Assembly (NCBI GenBank): GCA_024682255.1
Contig: GCA_024682255.1_4716.1
Length of the DNA stretch: 64,000 bases
Strand: one strand, 5' to 3'
From: a phage
The translations under genes were made by a program, and so were the position numbers. Below are positions 34,287-41,839 of the stretch, piece after piece (within the stretch, counting starts at the first letter, position 1; every line of letters begins with the position of its first letter). The notes beneath the pieces were generated by a model. That model was not told the origin of the DNA, searched no databases, and worked only from the letters and a program-made list of their open reading frames with translations.

Positions 34287-34330
34287 TTAAAGCCCTCTTT
34301 ATCTTTTTCCATTTCTCTTTACATAACCAC

Positions 34331-35017
34331 TTAAGACGTTGCCATCTTATCTTCCAGAGACTTCTTCGGTAAACCATGGATAACTCCTTCCGGGGTTAAG
34401 AACACACAGTCTGGATTCTGCGTTCGTGAACGGTCGTCTGGACTGTTCAACGAAAACAGCAATGCAGAAATACCTTTTGTCCGATTTAACGTTGCGACGA
34501 TCACGTCAAGCTGCCGTAGCGCATCCGATACGGTTCGATGAGGAACGATTCGTGACTGTTTGAAGCTGGCTAACCGCCAAGTCTCGAACAAACAACGCAG
34601 TTTAAACACGTCGGACGGAATAGCTGTAGATCCCTGTTCAATAACCTCAACCCGATCCGCTTCAGGATAACCTACAGCAACCGCACTAAAGTGTCTTACC
34701 CCATTATGAAAATCATCGATAGACGCTTCAGCGTATTTACATACCGTGCCAGAAACGACCATCACTTTTGCTAAACCGCGATAATTGATCGTTAACGGAA
34801 TACGAAATACGCGTAAAGCATGTTCCGGATTTAATGAGACGTCATTCACTTTCGCAGATACCAACGCACCTCGTTCATATCGAGCTTTGAACGGCAGCCC
34901 ATTATAAACAGGATTGATCACAACGCCCCCTGGGGAGGCGTTAGCGTTAAGATGAATGTTAAGCCAATCGGATACTTCCTGTCTGCTGGTTACGATTAAC
35001 ATAAAACGGTCCTCCAT
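34331..35017 (-). CDS. Hypothetical protein (about 228 aa)
   Basis: ORF 34331-35056; start placed at ATG 35017 with GAAGGAAAAG RBS to avoid overlap. Confidence 0.55.
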   Translation of the reverse strand: MEDRFMLIVTSRQEVSDWLNIHLNANASPGGVVINPVYNGLPFKARYERGALVSAKVNDVSLNPEHALRVFRIPLTINYRGLAKVMVVSGTVCKYAEASIDDFHNGVRHFSAVAVGYPEADRVEVIEQGSTAIPSDVFKLRCLFETWRLASFKQSRIVPHRTVSDALRQLDVIVATLNRTKGISALLFSLNSPDDRSRTQNPDCVFLTPEGVIHGLPKKSLEDKMATS

Positions 35018-35027
35018 TTCTTTTCCT

Positions 35028-35678
35028 TCATTCATGGCGCATATCTTCCAAATCATCCTTTTGTTTTGTAAATTCTGATTGCTTGCGATAAACCTCCCAT
35101 GAGTCGTATATACCGTAAAAGTTCAAATGGCGTGCATTTAAGTTCACAGTAAATTCTTCCACAGAGGCAAAATCCGAACGAAGCATCGAATGGAAGGTGT
35201 CATCTCCAGTGCAGCCTCCGTATCCTTCACCCTGATAGACCAAAAGCTGGTGAGGTTGGATACGTGCGGCAACCAATGCGGCTTGTGGTTCGTCGTAAGG
35301 TGGCCATGACAGTAGAATAACGTCGTACTGTGAAAGATCGATGTTTGTGTAGTCGGCTTGCTGAATGTCCTCGATAAACGGGTGGGGATGTAATTCCGTA
35401 TCGTAAGCGGCAATGTCCTCAACACCAAGTTTACGCAACACATAGGTCAGGTAACCTGTCCCACAACCCAGGTCAGCAACACGTCGCCCGTAACAGATGT
35501 TCGCTAACTGGAGCGCGGTATCCATGGTTAACAACGACCATCCGACGTGTTGGGTATATTCTTCACGCACAATCCATTGTTGATGGTGCGTCATCGGTTC
35601 TAAGATAGCAGCAAGCTGCTGGTACGCCAACGGCATTTTGGTTTCGCCTTGCGTGAGTAATGCAATAACATCGTTCAT
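35028..35678 (-). CDS. Class I SAM-dependent methyltransferase (about 216 aa)
   Basis: Motif I VADLGCGTGYLT; downstream LLSWPPYDEP resembling an xPPY catalytic motif; start at ATG 35678 after hairpin. Confidence 0.6.
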   Translation of the reverse strand: MNDVIALLTQGETKMPLAYQQLAAILEPMTHHQQWIVREEYTQHVGWSLLTMDTALQLANICYGRRVADLGCGTGYLTYVLRKLGVEDIAAYDTELHPHPFIEDIQQADYTNIDLSQYDVILLSWPPYDEPQAALVAARIQPHQLLVYQGEGYGGCTGDDTFHSMLRSDFASVEEFTVNLNARHLNFYGIYDSWEVYRKQSEFTKQKDDLEDMRHE

Positions 35679-35701
35679 TTTGTTTCCTTTTATCGGCATA
35701 A

Positions 35702-35722
35702 GCCCTCCCATGCCGGGAGGGT
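35702..35722 (-). terminator. Terminator-like hairpin
   Basis: GCCCTCCC-ATGCC-GGGAGGGT preceded by CATAA. Confidence 0.55.
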
Positions 35723-35726
35723 ACAA

Positions 35727-36155
35727 TTATTCATTTTCAATAACTTTAAGATTCGGTGTACCGAGCGTTTTCTTCACCAACGCCTCGGCAACACGTTTCT
35801 CGATGAAATCGGTCGCATTGCTTCCGTCTATCGTGCGCATGTCACCACGGAAGTTATTGAAGACCATAAACAAGTCACAACCGTCGATAGGTATCGCAAG
35901 ATCATAACTGACTTGTGATGCTGTGAAATGGACACCCACGACAACGGCGGGAACGAATTTAACCGCTGTGTTATCTCCTTCTTCTCCGGTTCCGAACGGA
36001 AGCTCAACACGATCACCGATAGAGAACTGTGAGACATCATTAATCGCGTGAGTTAGTGCGATTCGTTGCATGTCGGCGATCTTTTCCTTATTCGCGTCGC
36101 AAGGTAGGTTCAAGACTTCTTCCAACGTGAAGAATTTACGATCGAACCAGCTCAT
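35727..36155 (-). CDS. Hypothetical protein (142 aa)
   Basis: ORF immediately downstream of GNAT gene. Confidence 0.6.
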   Translation of the reverse strand: MSWFDRKFFTLEEVLNLPCDANKEKIADMQRIALTHAINDVSQFSIGDRVELPFGTGEEGDNTAVKFVPAVVVGVHFTASQVSYDLAIPIDGCDLFMVFNNFRGDMRTIDGSNATDFIEKRVAEALVKKTLGTPNLKVIENE

Positions 36156-36156
36156 G

Positions 36157-36690
36157 TTAAGCTCCTTTCTGTTTTACGGACGATGTTAACCAGGACGATC
36201 TTACCGTGAAACCCTCAGACTCATAGAACGCCTGGGCTTCAGCGTTATCGGCACGAACATCCAGGCCAATAGAATGCCCACCGCACTGGTAAGCGATGTT
36301 ACGTGCTTCGTTCATCAAGGCGTGGCCGATACCACGTCCGCGATATTCGGGTTTTACAACAATCGATGTAACGTCATGAATGCCCATATGGCTCTCTATA
36401 TTCACTTCCAAGAGGCCTACCGGCATCGAAGCGATGGCGTCGATCATAACGACCAACTTTGCAGTGTCCGGTAAACGCTTTTCTAATTCTAAGGCATCGT
36501 ACTCGCGTTTTAAATCGGGGATATTCTCAAACATAAACGTGGTAGCCCAAGCCTCTGATTCTACGTCGTCGAGAATACGGTACAGCTCACGAATCTGTCG
36601 TTTATGTGGGTAAAGGTGTGGATCGGCGGCCGTTGAGGCGATAACGCAATAGAACGGCCGTTCATTAATAACTACTGTTTTGATGCTCAT
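36157..36690 (-). CDS. GNAT family N-acetyltransferase
   Basis: Acetyl-CoA binding motif VKPEYRGRGIGHALMNEA and C-terminal AFYESEGF; 4-nt overlap with upstream gene. Confidence 0.8.
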   Translation of the reverse strand: MSIKTVVINERPFYCVIASTAADPHLYPHKRQIRELYRILDDVESEAWATTFMFENIPDLKREYDALELEKRLPDTAKLVVMIDAIASMPVGLLEVNIESHMGIHDVTSIVVKPEYRGRGIGHALMNEARNIAYQCGGHSIGLDVRADNAEAQAFYESEGFTVRSSWLTSSVKQKGA

Positions 36691-37193
36691 GCTAAAATTC
36701 CCTCATTACCTAACAGTCGATTACGATGACGTCGGTACATTTGACAAAGTGTTGTGATTTGATAATGTTTGTTGTAACGCACCTCGATACGTTTTTGCAC
36801 CTCTTTCCATGGAAGTTTATCGTATTGCCGATAACGATGGATTTCATTTAACATACGAAGACGAGTAGGATCGGTGTTCTTTATCGTCGTGAGCTTCACG
36901 CGTTGGTATCCGCGCTGTAGTCCCGATTCGGAATACGTGACATCAAACTCATCCTGAATGATGGTAATGATCTCCCGCCACCGACGGTTCTCGCCATCAC
37001 GTAAATGGACAACCCGCGATAAGATATCGTTCCGATTACGATGACTCAGTTTGATGTTAAGCATTGAAGCAATCGCGCTAATGGCTCTCTGACTCCGTCC
37101 TAACGCTTCACCTATTTCTTTCGATGTCATGACGCCCGCGTTTCGGCGTATGAATGCGATTTCGGTTGTTGTGTATTCTTTACCTGCTGCCAT
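36687..37193 (-). CDS. Myb/SANT-like HTH protein, paralog 6 of tandem array
   Basis: HTH repeat TSKEIGEALGRSQRAISAI plus two W..I...I..EF repeats. Confidence 0.65.
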   Translation of the reverse strand: MAAGKEYTTTEIAFIRRNAGVMTSKEIGEALGRSQRAISAIASMLNIKLSHRNRNDILSRVVHLRDGENRRWREIITIIQDEFDVTYSESGLQRGYQRVKLTTIKNTDPTRLRMLNEIHRYRQYDKLPWKEVQKRIEVRYNKHYQITTLCQMYRRHRNRLLGNEGILA

Positions 37194-37657
37194 TTCTTAC
37201 CACGTGTGTTATAATAGTAACGCTGACAAAGATGTGTGTGACGATACTCCCGTTTGAACTCGACGCTAATGATGCGAGCAACTTCTCTCCAGTTAACCCC
37301 TTCACGTCGAAGTGCTGTAATACGGTCTGAAATTTTGCACCATTCATCTGGGTCGTATCGACGTAGCTTAAGTCGTCGTATTACGGAGGCGACGCTCGCT
37401 CTCGATCGGCCAAGATGATTTGACAGCTGTTTAACCGAGTATCTGTGGATATTGTCACGAATATAGGAAATCTCGTTGTTCGTATATGCCTCATTGGTTC
37501 TCGACGAAGGGAACAGCATATACAACTTATTCTTAATCGCGCTTTCTGTGCGTTGAAATACAGCAGCCAGCTCACTAACCGGTGGTCTGGGTATCTGGTC
37601 CGCGTAATTCTCGAGGCGTGAGAGTTCCTCATCTGTCCAGCGACGGTATTTGCGCAT
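37127..37657 (-). CDS. Myb/SANT-like HTH protein, paralog 5
   Basis: Start at ATG 37657 with GGAG RBS; repeats RWTDEELSRL...VSELAAVFQRTESAIKNKL and YSVKQLSNHLGRSRASV. Confidence 0.65.
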   Translation of the reverse strand: MRKYRRWTDEELSRLENYADQIPRPPVSELAAVFQRTESAIKNKLYMLFPSSRTNEAYTNNEISYIRDNIHRYSVKQLSNHLGRSRASVASVIRRLKLRRYDPDEWCKISDRITALRREGVNWREVARIISVEFKREYRHTHLCQRYYYNTRGKKWQQVKNTQQPKSHSYAETRAS

Positions 37658-38132
37658 AGGCAGCTCCTTTGTTTTTCGTGTAGTAACACCAACGTTGATA
37701 CAACGCATGTTTATTCGTTGTAATCCCAAATTTAACAACAACGTCGTAGGTAATAACATCCCAATTTTGGGTGACGTTAAGTCGTTCCGCGATAAACGCG
37801 ATAATCGCTTCCCGTTCTTGCTTGGTGAGCGCACGACGAATTCCGTTAAGCCGTATAAACTGACGAACCGAGTCATACGAACGGTTTAAATCGTACGCAA
37901 TCTCCCGCAGCGATTTTTGTCTGATTACCGACTTGATGTATGCGCGTTCTTCTTCCGTGTACGGCCGATGCTTTTGACGTTGACGTATTCCCAAACGCCC
38001 CAGACGCGCGTCGACGCTGGCGCGTGTTCGTCCTGTCCGTTGCGCAATTTCATCAATCGTCATCGACGTGTTCAAATACAGATGCGTAACATCTTTCAGC
38101 TCGTCGTCACGCCACGGTTGAGATCGTCCCAT
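37629..38132 (-). CDS. Myb/SANT-like HTH protein, paralog 4
   Basis: Repeats WRDDELKDV...IDEIAQRTGRTRASVDARL and YTEEERAYI...LREIAYDLNRSYDSV. Confidence 0.7.
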   Translation of the reverse strand: MGRSQPWRDDELKDVTHLYLNTSMTIDEIAQRTGRTRASVDARLGRLGIRQRQKHRPYTEEERAYIKSVIRQKSLREIAYDLNRSYDSVRQFIRLNGIRRALTKQEREAIIAFIAERLNVTQNWDVITYDVVVKFGITTNKHALYQRWCYYTKNKGAAYAQIPSLDR

Positions 38133-38610
38133 CTTGTATCCCTCTTTTCTTTCTATGATGCCACCAACGCTGATAGACAGCTTGCTTCGTACGTGTTATA
38201 CCGAAATGCTCATTAACCCGTTCAGCAATGTAGTACCAATCCTGTGTTTCTTCCAACAATCTATCAACGAAGGCTATGAAGATCTTAGTATCAGCCTCGC
38301 TTAACCGCTTAAAACCATGACGGTGTGCAATCGTTCTAATACTGTTTGGATCCCTGTTTAAATCGCGTGCGAGTTGTTTGTAACTTTTGTGTTTGCAGTG
38401 CACTCTGATATATTCCAGCTCACCGACGCTGAAACGTTTATGGGGTTTACGACGTTCAACATTTAAGTATACCAACCTCGATTTAATTGCACCGTACGTT
38501 GTTTCCATGATTTCTGCGATTTCACGGATTTTTAATTTCGGGTGACGATAGTACAATTCCAGCAACTGTTCATCATCCTTACGATTCCATCGTCGTACTG
38601 GAGGTTTCAC
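38107..38610 (-). CDS. Myb/SANT-like HTH protein, paralog 3
   Basis: Repeats RWNRKDDEQLLELY...IREIAEIMETTYGAIKSRL and SYKQLARDLNRDPNSI. Confidence 0.7.
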   Translation of the reverse strand: MKPPVRRWNRKDDEQLLELYYRHPKLKIREIAEIMETTYGAIKSRLVYLNVERRKPHKRFSVGELEYIRVHCKHKSYKQLARDLNRDPNSIRTIAHRHGFKRLSEADTKIFIAFVDRLLEETQDWYYIAERVNEHFGITRTKQAVYQRWWHHRKKRGIQDGTISTVA

Positions 38611-38623
38611 AACGAGATTTCTC

Positions 38624-39091
38624 CTATTCTACGCGTTTTAATGCTTGAGTGTAGTAGAGGCTATGAACACCGCTTAACGTGTAATGGGTGTTAAATTCAT
38701 TATTGATGATGTTCCGTATTCTCTCCCAGGTGTTATTCTCTTTTCTAAGGGCGTGTATTCGATAATAAATCATCTCTCGACGTTGCGCTTTGCATGCAAC
38801 AATACCGTAACGGTAGCAGAGTTTAGCGATTGCGTCCACGCTACGATTGAACATCGCTGCAGCTTCTTTTACGCTATGCGTCTTAAGATAATCAGCTAAC
38901 ATCACACGTTCTTCGAAACAACAATAGCGGTGACGCGACATGAGTTTCCAGCGCTTGCGATTGCGGTTAATTCGACCTTGAACAGAGCCTTCTGTTCGGT
39001 CAAGCCGTGCCGCAATCTCTTGCATCGGGATACCGTTTCGGTACAGGGTAATCAATATCGCGTCTTCTTCGGGTGTCCAGTCCTTGACCAT
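38624..39091 (-). CDS. Myb/SANT-like HTH protein, paralog 2
   Basis: Repeats WTPEEDAILITLY...MQEIAARLDRTEGSVQGRI and SVKEAAAMFNRSVDAI. Confidence 0.7.
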   Translation of the reverse strand: MVKDWTPEEDAILITLYRNGIPMQEIAARLDRTEGSVQGRINRNRKRWKLMSRHRYCCFEERVMLADYLKTHSVKEAAAMFNRSVDAIAKLCYRYGIVACKAQRREMIYYRIHALRKENNTWERIRNIINNEFNTHYTLSGVHSLYYTQALKRVE

Positions 39092-39103
39092 AGCGCCACC
39101 CCA

Positions 39104-41839
<2,736 letters not shown>

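What the first reader, a model, noticed from the sequence alone, without database searches (positions are those of the whole stretch)
35028..36690. SAM-methyltransferase with non-canonical WPPY motif next to a GNAT acetyltransferase
The methyltransferase has a classic motif I (DLGCGTG) and a downstream LLSWPPYD resembling the (D/N/S)PPY catalytic motif of amino-group methyltransferases, but with Trp in the first position. Together with the adjacent GNAT and the Myb-like array this may be a modification module (DNA, RNA or protein target unknown).
Basis: partly seen in the sequence, partly recalled or inferred. Interest (0 to 1): 0.4.

Follow-up and report, generated by a model that had tools for sequence, protein, structure and literature searches.

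The report
Orphan viral methyltransferase with Trp-Pro-x-Tyr motif
This Goslar-like jumbo-phage gene encodes a probably active SAM-dependent methyltransferase from a large, uncharacterised, mostly viral family in which a tryptophan replaces the usual catalytic Asp/Asn/Ser, and it is not functionally tied to the acetyltransferase gene nearby.

Summary
DLGCGTG lies at 35454-35474 and LLSWPPYD at 35292-35315 on the minus strand. The window is 95.8% identical to E. coli jumbo phage Goslar, and the ORF is the orthologue of gp111, which RefSeq calls a 'class I SAM-dependent methyltransferase'.

The AlphaFold model (pLDDT 86.7) is a Rossmann methyltransferase fold, and WPPY sits directly after strand β4. 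hhalign places it in register with NPPY of E. coli PrmC (probability 92.9%) and with DPPF of RsmD.

Across 149 diverged relatives, W and the first P are invariant but the second P is not (34% P). The family motif is therefore W-P-x-Y, so it fails the defining feature of (D/N/S)PPY amino-methyltransferases. A second signature, G-E-x-x-G-G-C-T-G-D after β5, is equally conserved.

The family is large: 1014 clusters at E ≤ 1e-30. It has no Pfam model and matches PHROG 19090, 'unknown function'. It occurs in jumbo phages and haloarchaeal viruses, with more distant relatives in giant viruses.

Fold searches are flat and do not identify a substrate. The GNAT is two genes away, not adjacent, and the linkage is not conserved: other phages with both genes keep them about 195 kb apart. 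The 'module' reading is therefore not supported, and the substrate remains unknown.

The parts
35028..35699 (-). Methyltransferase CDS, 223 aa (orthologue of Goslar gp111). Alternative starts are TTG 35726 and ATG 35678.
   Evidence: ORF list. 92.7% aa identity to Goslar gp111, annotated as a class I SAM-dependent methyltransferase. PHROG 19090 at 3.1e-18. AF2 Rossmann fold, pLDDT 86.7. dN/dS 0.16.
35454..35474 (-). Motif I, DLGCGTG (residues 76-82), the SAM-binding glycine loop
   Evidence: Translation. G80 in 147/149 and G82 in 145/149 members. Aligned with LGTGTG of PrmC.
35400..35402 (-). D100, the acidic residue at the end of β2 (motif II, SAM ribose ligand)
   Evidence: Translation. Present in 139/149 members. 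Aligned with the AVD aspartate of PrmC.
35292..35315 (-). Motif IV region, LLSWPPYD (residues 129-136). The family consensus is W-P-x-Y.
   Evidence: Translation. It follows β4 (127-131) in the model. W132 in 149/149, P133 in 148/149, position 134 variable, Y135 in 127/149. In register with SNPPYID of PrmC and DPPF of RsmD.
35199..35231 (-). Loop after β5, GEGYGGCTGDD (residues 157-167), the second family signature
   Evidence: Translation. G157 in 149/149, E158 in 147, G162 in 147, C163 in 145, T164 in 133 of 149. It follows β5 (152-157) in the model.
35097..35114 (-). GIYDSW (residues 196-201), just before β7. It contains the invariant D199.
   Evidence: Translation. D199 in 148/149 and W201 in 120/149. 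Position 198 is H in 114/149 members but Y here.
35703..35721 (-). Hairpin CCCTCCC-GGCAT-GGGAGGG between the gp112 stop codon and the methyltransferase start. Its 3' arm is the Shine-Dalgarno sequence.
   Evidence: Sequence read directly.
35727..36155 (-). Intervening 142-aa ORF of unknown function (= Goslar gp112)
   Evidence: ORF list. No hit in Pfam, PHROGs, NCBIfam or PADLOC. Found only in Goslar, plus a weak match in Erwinia phage Bue1.
36157..36690 (-). GNAT N-acetyltransferase, 177 aa (= Goslar gp113). It lies in the same gene string but is not a conserved partner of the methyltransferase.
   Evidence: PF00583 at 5.5e-15, above cutoff. RGRGIG at 36325-36342. The nearest solved relatives are uncharacterised GNATs and the spermidine/diamine acetyltransferases SpeG, PaiA and RimI, E 2e-7 to 3e-5. 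dN/dS 0.05.

Best explanation
The ORF encodes a stand-alone, probably active class I (Rossmann-fold) SAM-dependent methyltransferase. It is the orthologue of Goslar gp111. It belongs to a large, uncharacterised family carried mainly by viruses.

Shown:
- SAM-binding motifs I-III are intact (G80, G82, D100, D116).
- An invariant W-P-x-Y sits exactly where HemK/PrmC-type enzymes have NPPY.
- A glycine-rich acidic loop, G-E-x-x-G-G-C-T-G-D, follows β5, and an invariant Asp precedes β7.
- There is no target-recognition domain. The conserved core is about 165 residues.
- There is no conserved gene partner.

Inferred:
- SAM binds as in other class I enzymes.
- The acceptor atom is held in a pocket lined by aromatic residues (W132, Y135, F169) and acidic residues (E158, D166/167, D199).
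- The methyl group is transferred directly by an SN2 reaction.

Trp cannot accept a hydrogen bond from an exocyclic amino group. The enzyme is therefore not a canonical N6-adenine, N4-cytosine or glutamine-N5 methyltransferase.

My best guess is that the acceptor is a nitrogen on a cationic or aromatic group of a widely conserved host component. A basic protein is somewhat more likely than an RNA base or a small amine or nucleotide. Phage DNA is the least likely target.

The neighbouring GNAT is an independent accessory gene.
For: Identity and annotation.

Family size: 8161 representatives at E ≤ 1e-3 and 1014 at E ≤ 1e-30. PHROG 19090 at 3e-18.

No dedicated Pfam model: only sub-threshold generic methyltransferase hits that cover motifs I-III.

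Invariant residues.

Profile comparisons:
- hhalign to PrmC gives 92.9%, with motif I, D100, D116 and WPPY/NPPY all in register.
- RsmD also aligns in register, at 14.8%.
- TrmA (6%) and TrmB (1.6%) are much weaker.

Purifying selection.

Charge: the protein is acidic (pI 4.8; core has K+R 10 against D+E 23). The family median pI is 5.3. PrmC has pI 4.84, whereas E. coli RNA methyltransferases fall at 5.7-6.4.

Independence from the GNAT.

Viral bias:
- The strict-motif scan returned 46 viral loci but only 9 hits in 185,579 species genomes, all of them metagenome-assembled genomes.
- Members occur in haloviruses PhiCh1, phiH and HGTV-1.
- Structure-level relatives occur in giant viruses of the Klosneuvirinae.
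- One giant-virus metagenome contig carries a WPPY ORF followed by the GGCTGD stretch in another frame.

Cellular fusion: in Obscuribacterales the domain is fused to TPR repeats, which are protein-interaction modules.
Against: - No substrate was identified by any method.
- Fold searches are flat. Foldseek against PDB ranks small-molecule O- and N-methyltransferases first, which argues against a protein target.
- The pI argument is weak, because E. coli RNA methyltransferases are also mildly acidic.
- The active-site description rests on strand and loop topology. I could not inspect the model coordinates.
- In PhiCh1 and phiH the homologue sits immediately downstream of two DNA methyltransferases. 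That is a hint towards DNA.
- C163 is as conserved as the other invariant residues, and this model does not explain its role.
- Position 198 is His in 77% of members but Tyr in this phage.
Confidence: 0.55

Rival explanations
1. It is an RNA base methyltransferase acting on rRNA or tRNA. It would work like the minimal single-domain amino-methyltransferases RsmD and METTL5, which recognise a folded ribonucleoprotein rather than a sequence.
For: - The size and single-domain architecture match RsmD (198 aa) and METTL5.
- phmmer's best PDB hit is METTL5, E 0.002.
- Motif IV is in register with DPPF of RsmD.
- rRNA and tRNA are universal targets, which would fit a family found in viruses of bacteria and archaea, with distant relatives in eukaryotic giant viruses.
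- One deposited record annotates a homologue as a 'tRNA methyltransferase'.
Against: - The hydrogen-bonding D/N residue that defines these enzymes is replaced by an invariant Trp.
- The METTL5 phmmer alignment covers only motifs I-III and stops before motif IV.
- The hhalign probability to RsmD is low, 14.8%.
- The core is strongly acidic, with K+R 10 against D+E 23.
- No RNA-binding extension is present.
Confidence: 0.2
2. It is a small-molecule methyltransferase acting on a polyamine, a nucleotide, an immune-signalling nucleotide or another metabolite. The glycine-rich loop and invariant R45 would bind a phosphate or carboxylate, and W132/Y135 would stack on a ring.
For: - Foldseek against PDB is headed by small-molecule enzymes: Plu4895, CcbJ, MtNAS, ToxA, halide methyltransferase, PmtA, NodS and COMT.
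- There is no target-recognition domain, and the surface is acidic.
- It is a lone accessory gene among small ORFans, as many anti-defence genes are.
- Nucleotide-metabolism genes lie beside it in two loci.
Against: - The Foldseek matches are weak (E about 1e-6, TM 0.3-0.48) and the list is flat.
- No biosynthetic cluster or conserved partner exists.
- The best profile match is a protein methyltransferase, PrmC.
- The TPR fusion in Obscuribacterales points to protein binding.
Confidence: 0.2
3. It is a DNA N6-adenine or N4-cytosine methyltransferase that protects phage DNA from restriction. This is the reading closest to the first reader's.
For: - Motif IV occupies the (D/N/S)PPY position.
- There are weak PADLOC hits to a Type II methyltransferase model (E 1.7e-5, alignment ending at Y135) and to Mad2.
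- In PhiCh1 and phiH the homologue directly follows two DNA methyltransferase genes, overlapping the stop of the upstream one.
Against: - The defining D/N/S residue is an invariant Trp and the second Pro is variable.
- The core is only about 165 residues and has no target-recognition domain.
- The protein is very acidic.
- No DNA methyltransferase, restriction or defence genes are enriched among 143 neighbours.
- Goslar builds a phage nucleus that excludes cytoplasmic proteins (PMC11895373; that this removes the need for anti-restriction methylation is my inference).
- Goslar DNA was digestible with several restriction enzymes (PMC6563267).
Confidence: 0.07
4. It is a C5-pyrimidine methyltransferase of the m5U/m5C type. 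The invariant Cys163 in the loop after β5 would be the covalent nucleophile and E158 or D199 the general base.
For: - C163 is present in 145/149 members. It lies in the loop after β5, where RNA m5C and m5U enzymes carry their catalytic Cys (the placement in known enzymes is from my own knowledge).
- The profile search against PDB aligns a P. horikoshii m5U methyltransferase (8z62) from motif I to β5, with WPxY opposite DPPR.
Against: - hhalign to E. coli TrmA aligns only motif I, at probability 6%.
- The Cys lies 8 residues after the β5 Tyr, whereas m5U enzymes have it about 3 residues after.
- Two family members have Tyr at this position.
- There is no RNA- or DNA-binding domain.
Confidence: 0.05
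5. The methyltransferase, gp112, the GNAT and the upstream Myb-like genes form one modification module acting on a common target.
For: - All lie on the same strand with short gaps, and no sigma-70 promoter or terminator signal exceeds shuffled expectation.
- The arrangement is conserved between this phage and Goslar.
- The GNAT's nearest characterised relatives acetylate polyamines or protein N-termini.
Against: - The linkage exists only in Goslar-like phages.
- Aeromonas pAEv1810, Klebsiella Miami and PhiCh1 have no GNAT nearby.
- KpLz_1_41, KpYy_2_45, LPKP23 and MJ359 carry both genes about 195 kb apart.
- No Pfam family recurs among 143 flanking ORFs.
- gp112 has almost no homologues.
Confidence: 0.04

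Closest known systems
HemK/PrmC-type and 'MTS' small-domain amino-methyltransferases (PF05175: PrmC, RsmC, RsmD; relatives METTL5 and Mtq2)
   Same: - Class I Rossmann fold.
- Motif I, the β2 Asp, the motif III Asp and motif IV all align in register with E. coli PrmC, at hhalign probability 92.9%.
- Motif IV also aligns in register with DPPF of RsmD.
- The proteins are small and single-domain.
- PF05175 is the precomputed Pfam hit for two close homologues and is hit by 14 of 44 members.
- The pI is similar to that of PrmC.
   Different: - The first residue of motif IV is an invariant Trp instead of Asn or Asp, and the second Pro is not conserved.
- The alignment to PrmC stops at motif IV.
- The G-E-x-x-G-G-C-T-G-D loop was not aligned to any of the four E. 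coli enzymes compared.
- There is no N-terminal substrate-recognition domain like the one in PrmC.
- All Pfam scores are below the gathering thresholds.
PHROG 19090 (phage protein family, function unknown)
   Same: The match is direct, at E 3.1e-18 over residues 53-214 of the 232-aa ORF. Members include Goslar gp111 and homologues in Aeromonas, Klebsiella, Salmonella and Xanthomonas jumbo phages and in haloviruses PhiCh1, phiH and HGTV-1.
   Different: Nothing differs. This is the family the protein belongs to, and it carries no functional annotation.
Small-molecule class I methyltransferases (Plu4895 O-MT, CcbJ, ToxA, halide/thiol MTs, COMT)
   Different: TM-scores are only 0.3-0.48 and sequence identity is 12-18%. 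None of their catalytic motifs was matched. There is no biosynthetic gene context.
GNAT N-acetyltransferases (PF00583; RimI, SpeG, PaiA-like), for the neighbouring gene
   Same: The Pfam hit is above threshold and the acetyl-CoA motif RGRGIG is present. Solved relatives include spermidine/diamine acetyltransferases and RimI.
   Different: It falls below the cutoff of every NCBIfam equivalog model, for example rimI at 56 bits against 86.4. Its substrate is therefore unknown. It is not linked to the methyltransferase in other phages.

Membership tests
Class I (Rossmann-fold) SAM-dependent methyltransferases | A seven-stranded α/β fold with the β-strand order typical of the class | tested here: met
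Class I (Rossmann-fold) SAM-dependent methyltransferases | Motif I glycine loop (GxGxG) plus an acidic residue at the end of β2 and an Asp/Asn after β3 for SAM binding | tested here: met
   DLGCGTG is present. G80 is in 147/149 members, G82 in 145/149, D100 in 139/149 and D116 as D or N in 120/149. All are aligned with the PrmC equivalents.
Class I (Rossmann-fold) SAM-dependent methyltransferases | Demonstrated SAM binding and methyl transfer | not testable with these tools
   This needs biochemistry.
(D/N/S)-P-P-(Y/F/W) amino-group methyltransferases (N6-A and N4-C DNA MTases, HemK/PrmC, RsmC/RsmD, METTL5) | The motif is located in the loop directly after β4 | tested here: met
   β4 spans 127-131 and WPPY spans 132-135. 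It is in register with NPPY of PrmC and DPPF of RsmD.
(D/N/S)-P-P-(Y/F/W) amino-group methyltransferases (N6-A and N4-C DNA MTases, HemK/PrmC, RsmC/RsmD, METTL5) | The first residue is Asp, Asn or Ser, whose side chain hydrogen-bonds the target amino group | tested here: not met
   Trp is present in 149 of 149 diverged members.
(D/N/S)-P-P-(Y/F/W) amino-group methyltransferases (N6-A and N4-C DNA MTases, HemK/PrmC, RsmC/RsmD, METTL5) | A conserved Pro-Pro pair followed by an aromatic residue | tested here: not met
   The first Pro is in 148/149 members. The second position is P 50, D 37, C 17, N 16 of 149. Tyr is in 127/149. The family motif is therefore W-P-x-Y.
DNA methyltransferases (any class) | A target-recognition domain or a specificity subunit | tested here: not met
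   The conserved core runs from R45 to about K206, the N-terminus is variable and no extra domain is present. No specificity, restriction or defence gene is enriched among the neighbours.
m5U / m5C RNA methyltransferases (TrmA/RlmD, RsmB type) | A catalytic Cys in motif VI that can be aligned with the family's nucleophile | tested here: inconclusive
   C163 lies in the loop after β5. However, hhalign to TrmA aligns only motif I, at probability 6%. The hmmsearch alignment to 8z62 ends at β5, before the Cys.
PHROG 19090 | A significant match to the family profile over most of its length | tested here: met
   E 3.1e-18, 67 bits, profile positions 34-190 of 191.
GNAT acetyltransferases (neighbouring gene) | A Pfam PF00583 match above the gathering score, and the acetyl-CoA motif (R/Q)xxGxG/A | tested here: met
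   56.1 bits against a cutoff of 20.7. RGRGIG lies at 36325-36342.
Methyltransferase-GNAT 'modification module' | Conserved co-localisation of the two genes across lineages | tested here: not met
   The pairing is found only in Goslar-like phages. Four other jumbo phages have both genes about 195 kb apart. There is no GNAT enrichment among 143 flanking ORFs from 35 loci.

The most novel reading that the evidence does not exclude
The W-P-x-Y / G-E-x-x-G-G-C-T-G-D proteins form a distinct catalytic class of virus-borne effector methyltransferases. Trp replaces the hydrogen-bonding D/N/S residue. The class would modify a universally conserved host component that is not DNA, for example a basic translation or nucleoid protein, a polyamine, or a signalling nucleotide. 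It would be used by jumbo phages, archaeal viruses and possibly giant viruses. In Obscuribacterales it may have been recruited as the C-terminal enzymatic module of large TPR proteins.
Probability: 0.2. Interest if true: 0.6.

Novelty: new variant of a known kind. Interest (0 to 1): 0.3.

Why it matters
The family is large: more than 1000 clusters at 50% identity with E ≤ 1e-30. It has no Pfam model and no characterised member. It recurs as an accessory gene in jumbo phages and haloarchaeal viruses, with structure-level relatives in giant viruses.

Its invariant Trp sits at the position that normally defines amino-group methyltransferases, which suggests a different acceptor chemistry. Identifying the substrate would give a function to thousands of 'hypothetical' or generic 'methyltransferase' annotations. 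It might also reveal a host-manipulation or anti-defence activity.

For this window specifically the result is sobering. The gene is already annotated in Goslar, the proposed methyltransferase-GNAT module does not hold, and DNA modification is unlikely.

Tried and rejected
1. Cys163 as an m5U/m5C-type nucleophile. hhalign to TrmA aligned only motif I, so I kept this as a low-probability rival.

2. TrmB-like FPDPW motif. I recalled this from memory and tested it with hhalign. The probability was 1.6%, so I rejected it.

3. Conserved neighbours. All-vs-all blastp of 975 ORFs from 50 loci found nothing shared across lineages. A Pfam scan of 143 flanking ORFs also found nothing.

4. Domain fusions. 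The long members P0149, P0164, P0072, P0086, P0060 and P0063 have no annotated extra domain. P0060 and P0063 are tandem duplications of the domain. P0149 has only a sub-threshold Transglut_core3 hit.

5. Sequence searches of solved structures, with the single sequence and with a profile. They matched only generic similarity over motifs I-III, extending to β5 in a few cases.

6. NCBIfam and PADLOC returned only sub-threshold or weak hits.

7. Literature searches on Goslar, gp111, Chimalliviridae methyltransferases, PhiCh1 ORF83 and phage-encoded methyltransferases. No paper treats this family.

8. The AFDB50 fold search could not be run because the library was not installed.

9. The search for related loci with the diverse alignment A2 failed for lack of a conserved stretch. 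The closer alignment A1 worked.

10. pI as a substrate discriminator. Controls showed it is only weakly informative.
Full report
**What the window is.** The region 34300-37200 is 95.8% identical at the nucleotide level to Escherichia phage vB_EcoM_Goslar, a 237-kb phage. Goslar is described as a nucleus-forming jumbo phage in PMC11895373. The reported interval 35028-36690 spans three minus-strand genes, not two:
- the methyltransferase (Goslar gp111, annotated in RefSeq as 'class I SAM-dependent methyltransferase')
- a 142-aa ORF with no detectable family (gp112)
- the GNAT acetyltransferase (gp113)

**Checking the observation.**
- Translating the exact coordinates gives DLGCGTG at 35454-35474 and LLSWPPYD at 35292-35315.
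- The most plausible start is ATG 35699, giving 223 aa as annotated in Goslar. GGGAGGG lies three bases upstream and forms the 3' arm of a perfect hairpin, CCCTCCC-GGCAT-GGGAGGG, at 35703-35721. ATG 35678 is an alternative start that some gene callers use (216-aa homologues).
- Against Goslar the gene has dS 0.24 and dN 0.038, so dN/dS is 0.16. All 16 amino-acid differences fall outside the conserved positions. It is a real gene under purifying selection.
- The GNAT is also real. It matches PF00583 at 56 bits against a cutoff of 20.7 and has RGRGIG at 36325-36342.
- The GNAT is separated from the methyltransferase by gp112, so 'adjacent' is only loosely true.

**The family.**
- Pfam, NCBIfam and PADLOC give only sub-threshold or weak generic methyltransferase hits. 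These cover the motif I-III region.
- PHROGs gives a clear match to phrog_19090, 'unknown function', at E 3e-18.
- An exhaustive profile search of 1.84 billion representatives finds 8161 proteins at E ≤ 1e-3, 4889 at E ≤ 1e-10 and 1014 at E ≤ 1e-30. Nearly all are about 190-260 aa.
- None of the 66 word-index hits carries an informative name.
- Among cultured phages, the gene occurs sporadically in jumbo phages of Aeromonas, Salmonella, Xanthomonas, Klebsiella/Serratia, Pseudomonas, Stenotrophomonas and Raoultella. It also occurs in haloarchaeal viruses PhiCh1, phiH and HGTV-1.
- Foldseek against BFVD adds multiple proteins of Klosneuvirinae giant viruses at E 1e-12 to 1e-7. A giant-virus metagenome contig carries an ORF with WPPY, with the GGCTGD stretch matched downstream in another frame.
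- A strict-motif scan of 185,579 species genomes found only nine loci, all in metagenome-assembled genomes.

**Conserved positions.** I aligned 149 diverged members. Counts out of 149:

| Residue | Count |
|---|---|
| R45 | 141 |
| G80 | 147 |
| G82 | 145 |
| D100 | 139 |
| W132 | 149 |
| P133 | 148 |
| Y135 | 127 |
| G157 | 149 |
| E158 | 147 |
| G162 | 147 |
| C163 | 145 |
| T164 | 133 |
| D199 | 148 |

Position 134, the second Pro of 'WPPY', is P 50, D 37, C 17 and N 16. The true family signatures are therefore W-P-x-Y and G-E-x-x-G-G-C-T-G-D, plus an (H)-D-x-W element before the last strand. In this phage position 198 is Tyr rather than the usual His.

**Structure and relationship to known enzymes.**
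- The AlphaFold2 model has pLDDT 86.7 and pTM 0.85 and is a class I Rossmann methyltransferase. β4 spans 127-131 and is followed at once by W132-Y135. β5 spans 152-157 and is followed by the Gly-rich loop.
- Foldseek against PDB is weak (E about 1e-6, TM ≤ 0.48) and is headed by small-molecule enzymes.
- Profile comparison to E. coli proteins is more discriminating:

| E. coli enzyme | hhalign probability | What aligns |
|---|---|---|
| PrmC (HemK) | 92.9% | Motif I, the β2 Asp, the motif III Asp, and SWPPYDE opposite SNPPYID, all in register |
| RsmD | 14.8% | Motif IV opposite DPPF, in register |
| TrmA | 6% | Motif I only |
| TrmB | 1.6% | No credible alignment |

The defining chemistry is absent, however. 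There is no hydrogen-bond-accepting first residue and no conserved Pro-Pro pair. I therefore do not file the protein as a member of that class.

**Context.**
- I found no conserved partner. All-vs-all comparison of 975 ORFs from 50 loci found no neighbour shared between lineages.
- A Pfam scan of 143 ORFs flanking the gene in 35 loci found no family in more than two of them. No GNAT or DNA methyltransferase was enriched.
- Called-gene contexts from metagenomes show strings of small unannotated ORFs.
- GNAT homologues exist in other jumbo phages. Where the same genome also has the methyltransferase (KpLz_1_41, KpYy_2_45, LPKP23, MJ359), the two genes are about 195 kb apart.
- gp112 is found essentially only in Goslar.
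- The only suggestive contexts are these:
  - In PhiCh1 and phiH the gene follows two DNA methyltransferase genes.
  - In two Candidatus Obscuribacterales metagenome-assembled genomes the domain is the C-terminal module of 847-872-aa proteins. These have central TPR repeats and an unannotated N-terminal region.

**Mechanism.**

Shown:
- an intact SAM-binding site
- a strongly conserved set of residues in the loops after β4 and β5 and before β7, which form the catalytic pocket in this fold
- no target-recognition domain
- an acidic protein, with pI 4.8 and a core of K+R 10 against D+E 23
- an acidic family, with median pI 5.3

Inferred: direct SN2 methyl transfer from SAM to an acceptor held between W132/Y135 and the acidic Gly-rich loop.

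A pocket rich in aromatic and acidic residues, on an acidic protein whose best profile match is PrmC, suggests a cationic or aromatic nitrogen acceptor on a protein. I rank that somewhat above an RNA base or a small molecule such as a polyamine or nucleotide. Phage DNA is the least likely target.

The evidence does not settle the substrate. The pI control shows that this argument is weak, since E. coli RNA methyltransferases have pI 5.7-6.4. The Foldseek ranking favours small-molecule enzymes. The role of the near-invariant Cys163 is unexplained.

**Novelty and verdict.**
- The gene itself is already annotated in Goslar, and the fold is ordinary.
- What is not described, as far as the searched literature shows, is the family-level signature: an invariant Trp at the motif IV position, plus GE..GGCTGD. 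The same holds for the family's breadth across bacterial and archaeal viruses, with distant giant-virus relatives.
- I rate it as a new variant of a known kind, of modest interest (0.3).
- The proposed methyltransferase-GNAT-Myb 'modification module' is not supported.

Noticed in passing
window 36687-39424 (-): A tandem array of paralogous small helix-turn-helix / SANT-Myb-like genes (= Goslar gp114-gp119). They match PHROG 323 'transcriptional regulator, D5-like' and Sigma70_r4_2/HTH Pfam models. blastp grouped four paralogues per Goslar-like genome.
   Followed up: partly
window 35703-35721 (-): A perfect 7-bp hairpin, CCCTCCC-GGCAT-GGGAGGG, lies between the gp112 stop codon and the methyltransferase start. 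Its 3' arm is the Shine-Dalgarno sequence, so folding could gate translation. It is not followed by a T-run.
   Followed up: no
L053 3964-6507 and L055 3913-6531 (Ca. Obscuribacterales MAGs): The WPxY/GGCTGD domain forms the C-terminus of 847-872-aa proteins. These have central TPR_12 repeats and an Ala/Gly/Ser-rich N-terminal region of about 300 aa that matches no Pfam model. The neighbours are cellular genes: a Ser/Thr kinase-LRR protein, a solute-binding protein and a PMT_2 glycosyltransferase.
   Followed up: partly
L004 1289-4474 (Natrialba phage PhiCh1) and phiH: The family member (ORF83 / PhiH1_425) overlaps the stop of a putative N4-cytosine DNA methyltransferase gene, two small ORFs downstream of a C5-cytosine one. 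This is the only context that hints at a DNA-related role.
   Followed up: partly
P0060 (610 aa), P0063 (576 aa); locus L068: Two proteins contain two tandem copies of the family domain in one polypeptide, with low-complexity linkers. Their origin is unknown because the contigs are short.
   Followed up: partly
P0149 (373 aa): A family member with a C-terminal extension that gives only a sub-threshold Transglut_core3 hit (E 0.077). It has a Cys/His/Asp pattern reminiscent of transglutaminase-like peptidases.
   Followed up: no
L061 6334-7554; L063 4011-6556: In single metagenomic phage contigs the family gene lies close to nucleotide-metabolism genes. In L061 it is one gene away from an adenylosuccinate-synthetase-like gene (possibly PurZ-like). 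In L063 it sits between an RNA ligase gene and an IMPDH/GMP-reductase-like gene.
   Followed up: no
window 39417-41486 (-): A 689-aa NAD-dependent DNA ligase (= Goslar gp121) lies immediately upstream of the HTH gene array.
   Followed up: no
window 34331-35056 (-): The ORF downstream of the methyltransferase (= Goslar gp110) has no family hit in Pfam, PHROGs, NCBIfam or PADLOC. As listed, its longest form would overlap the methyltransferase stop by 29 nt. Goslar annotates a later start.
   Followed up: no
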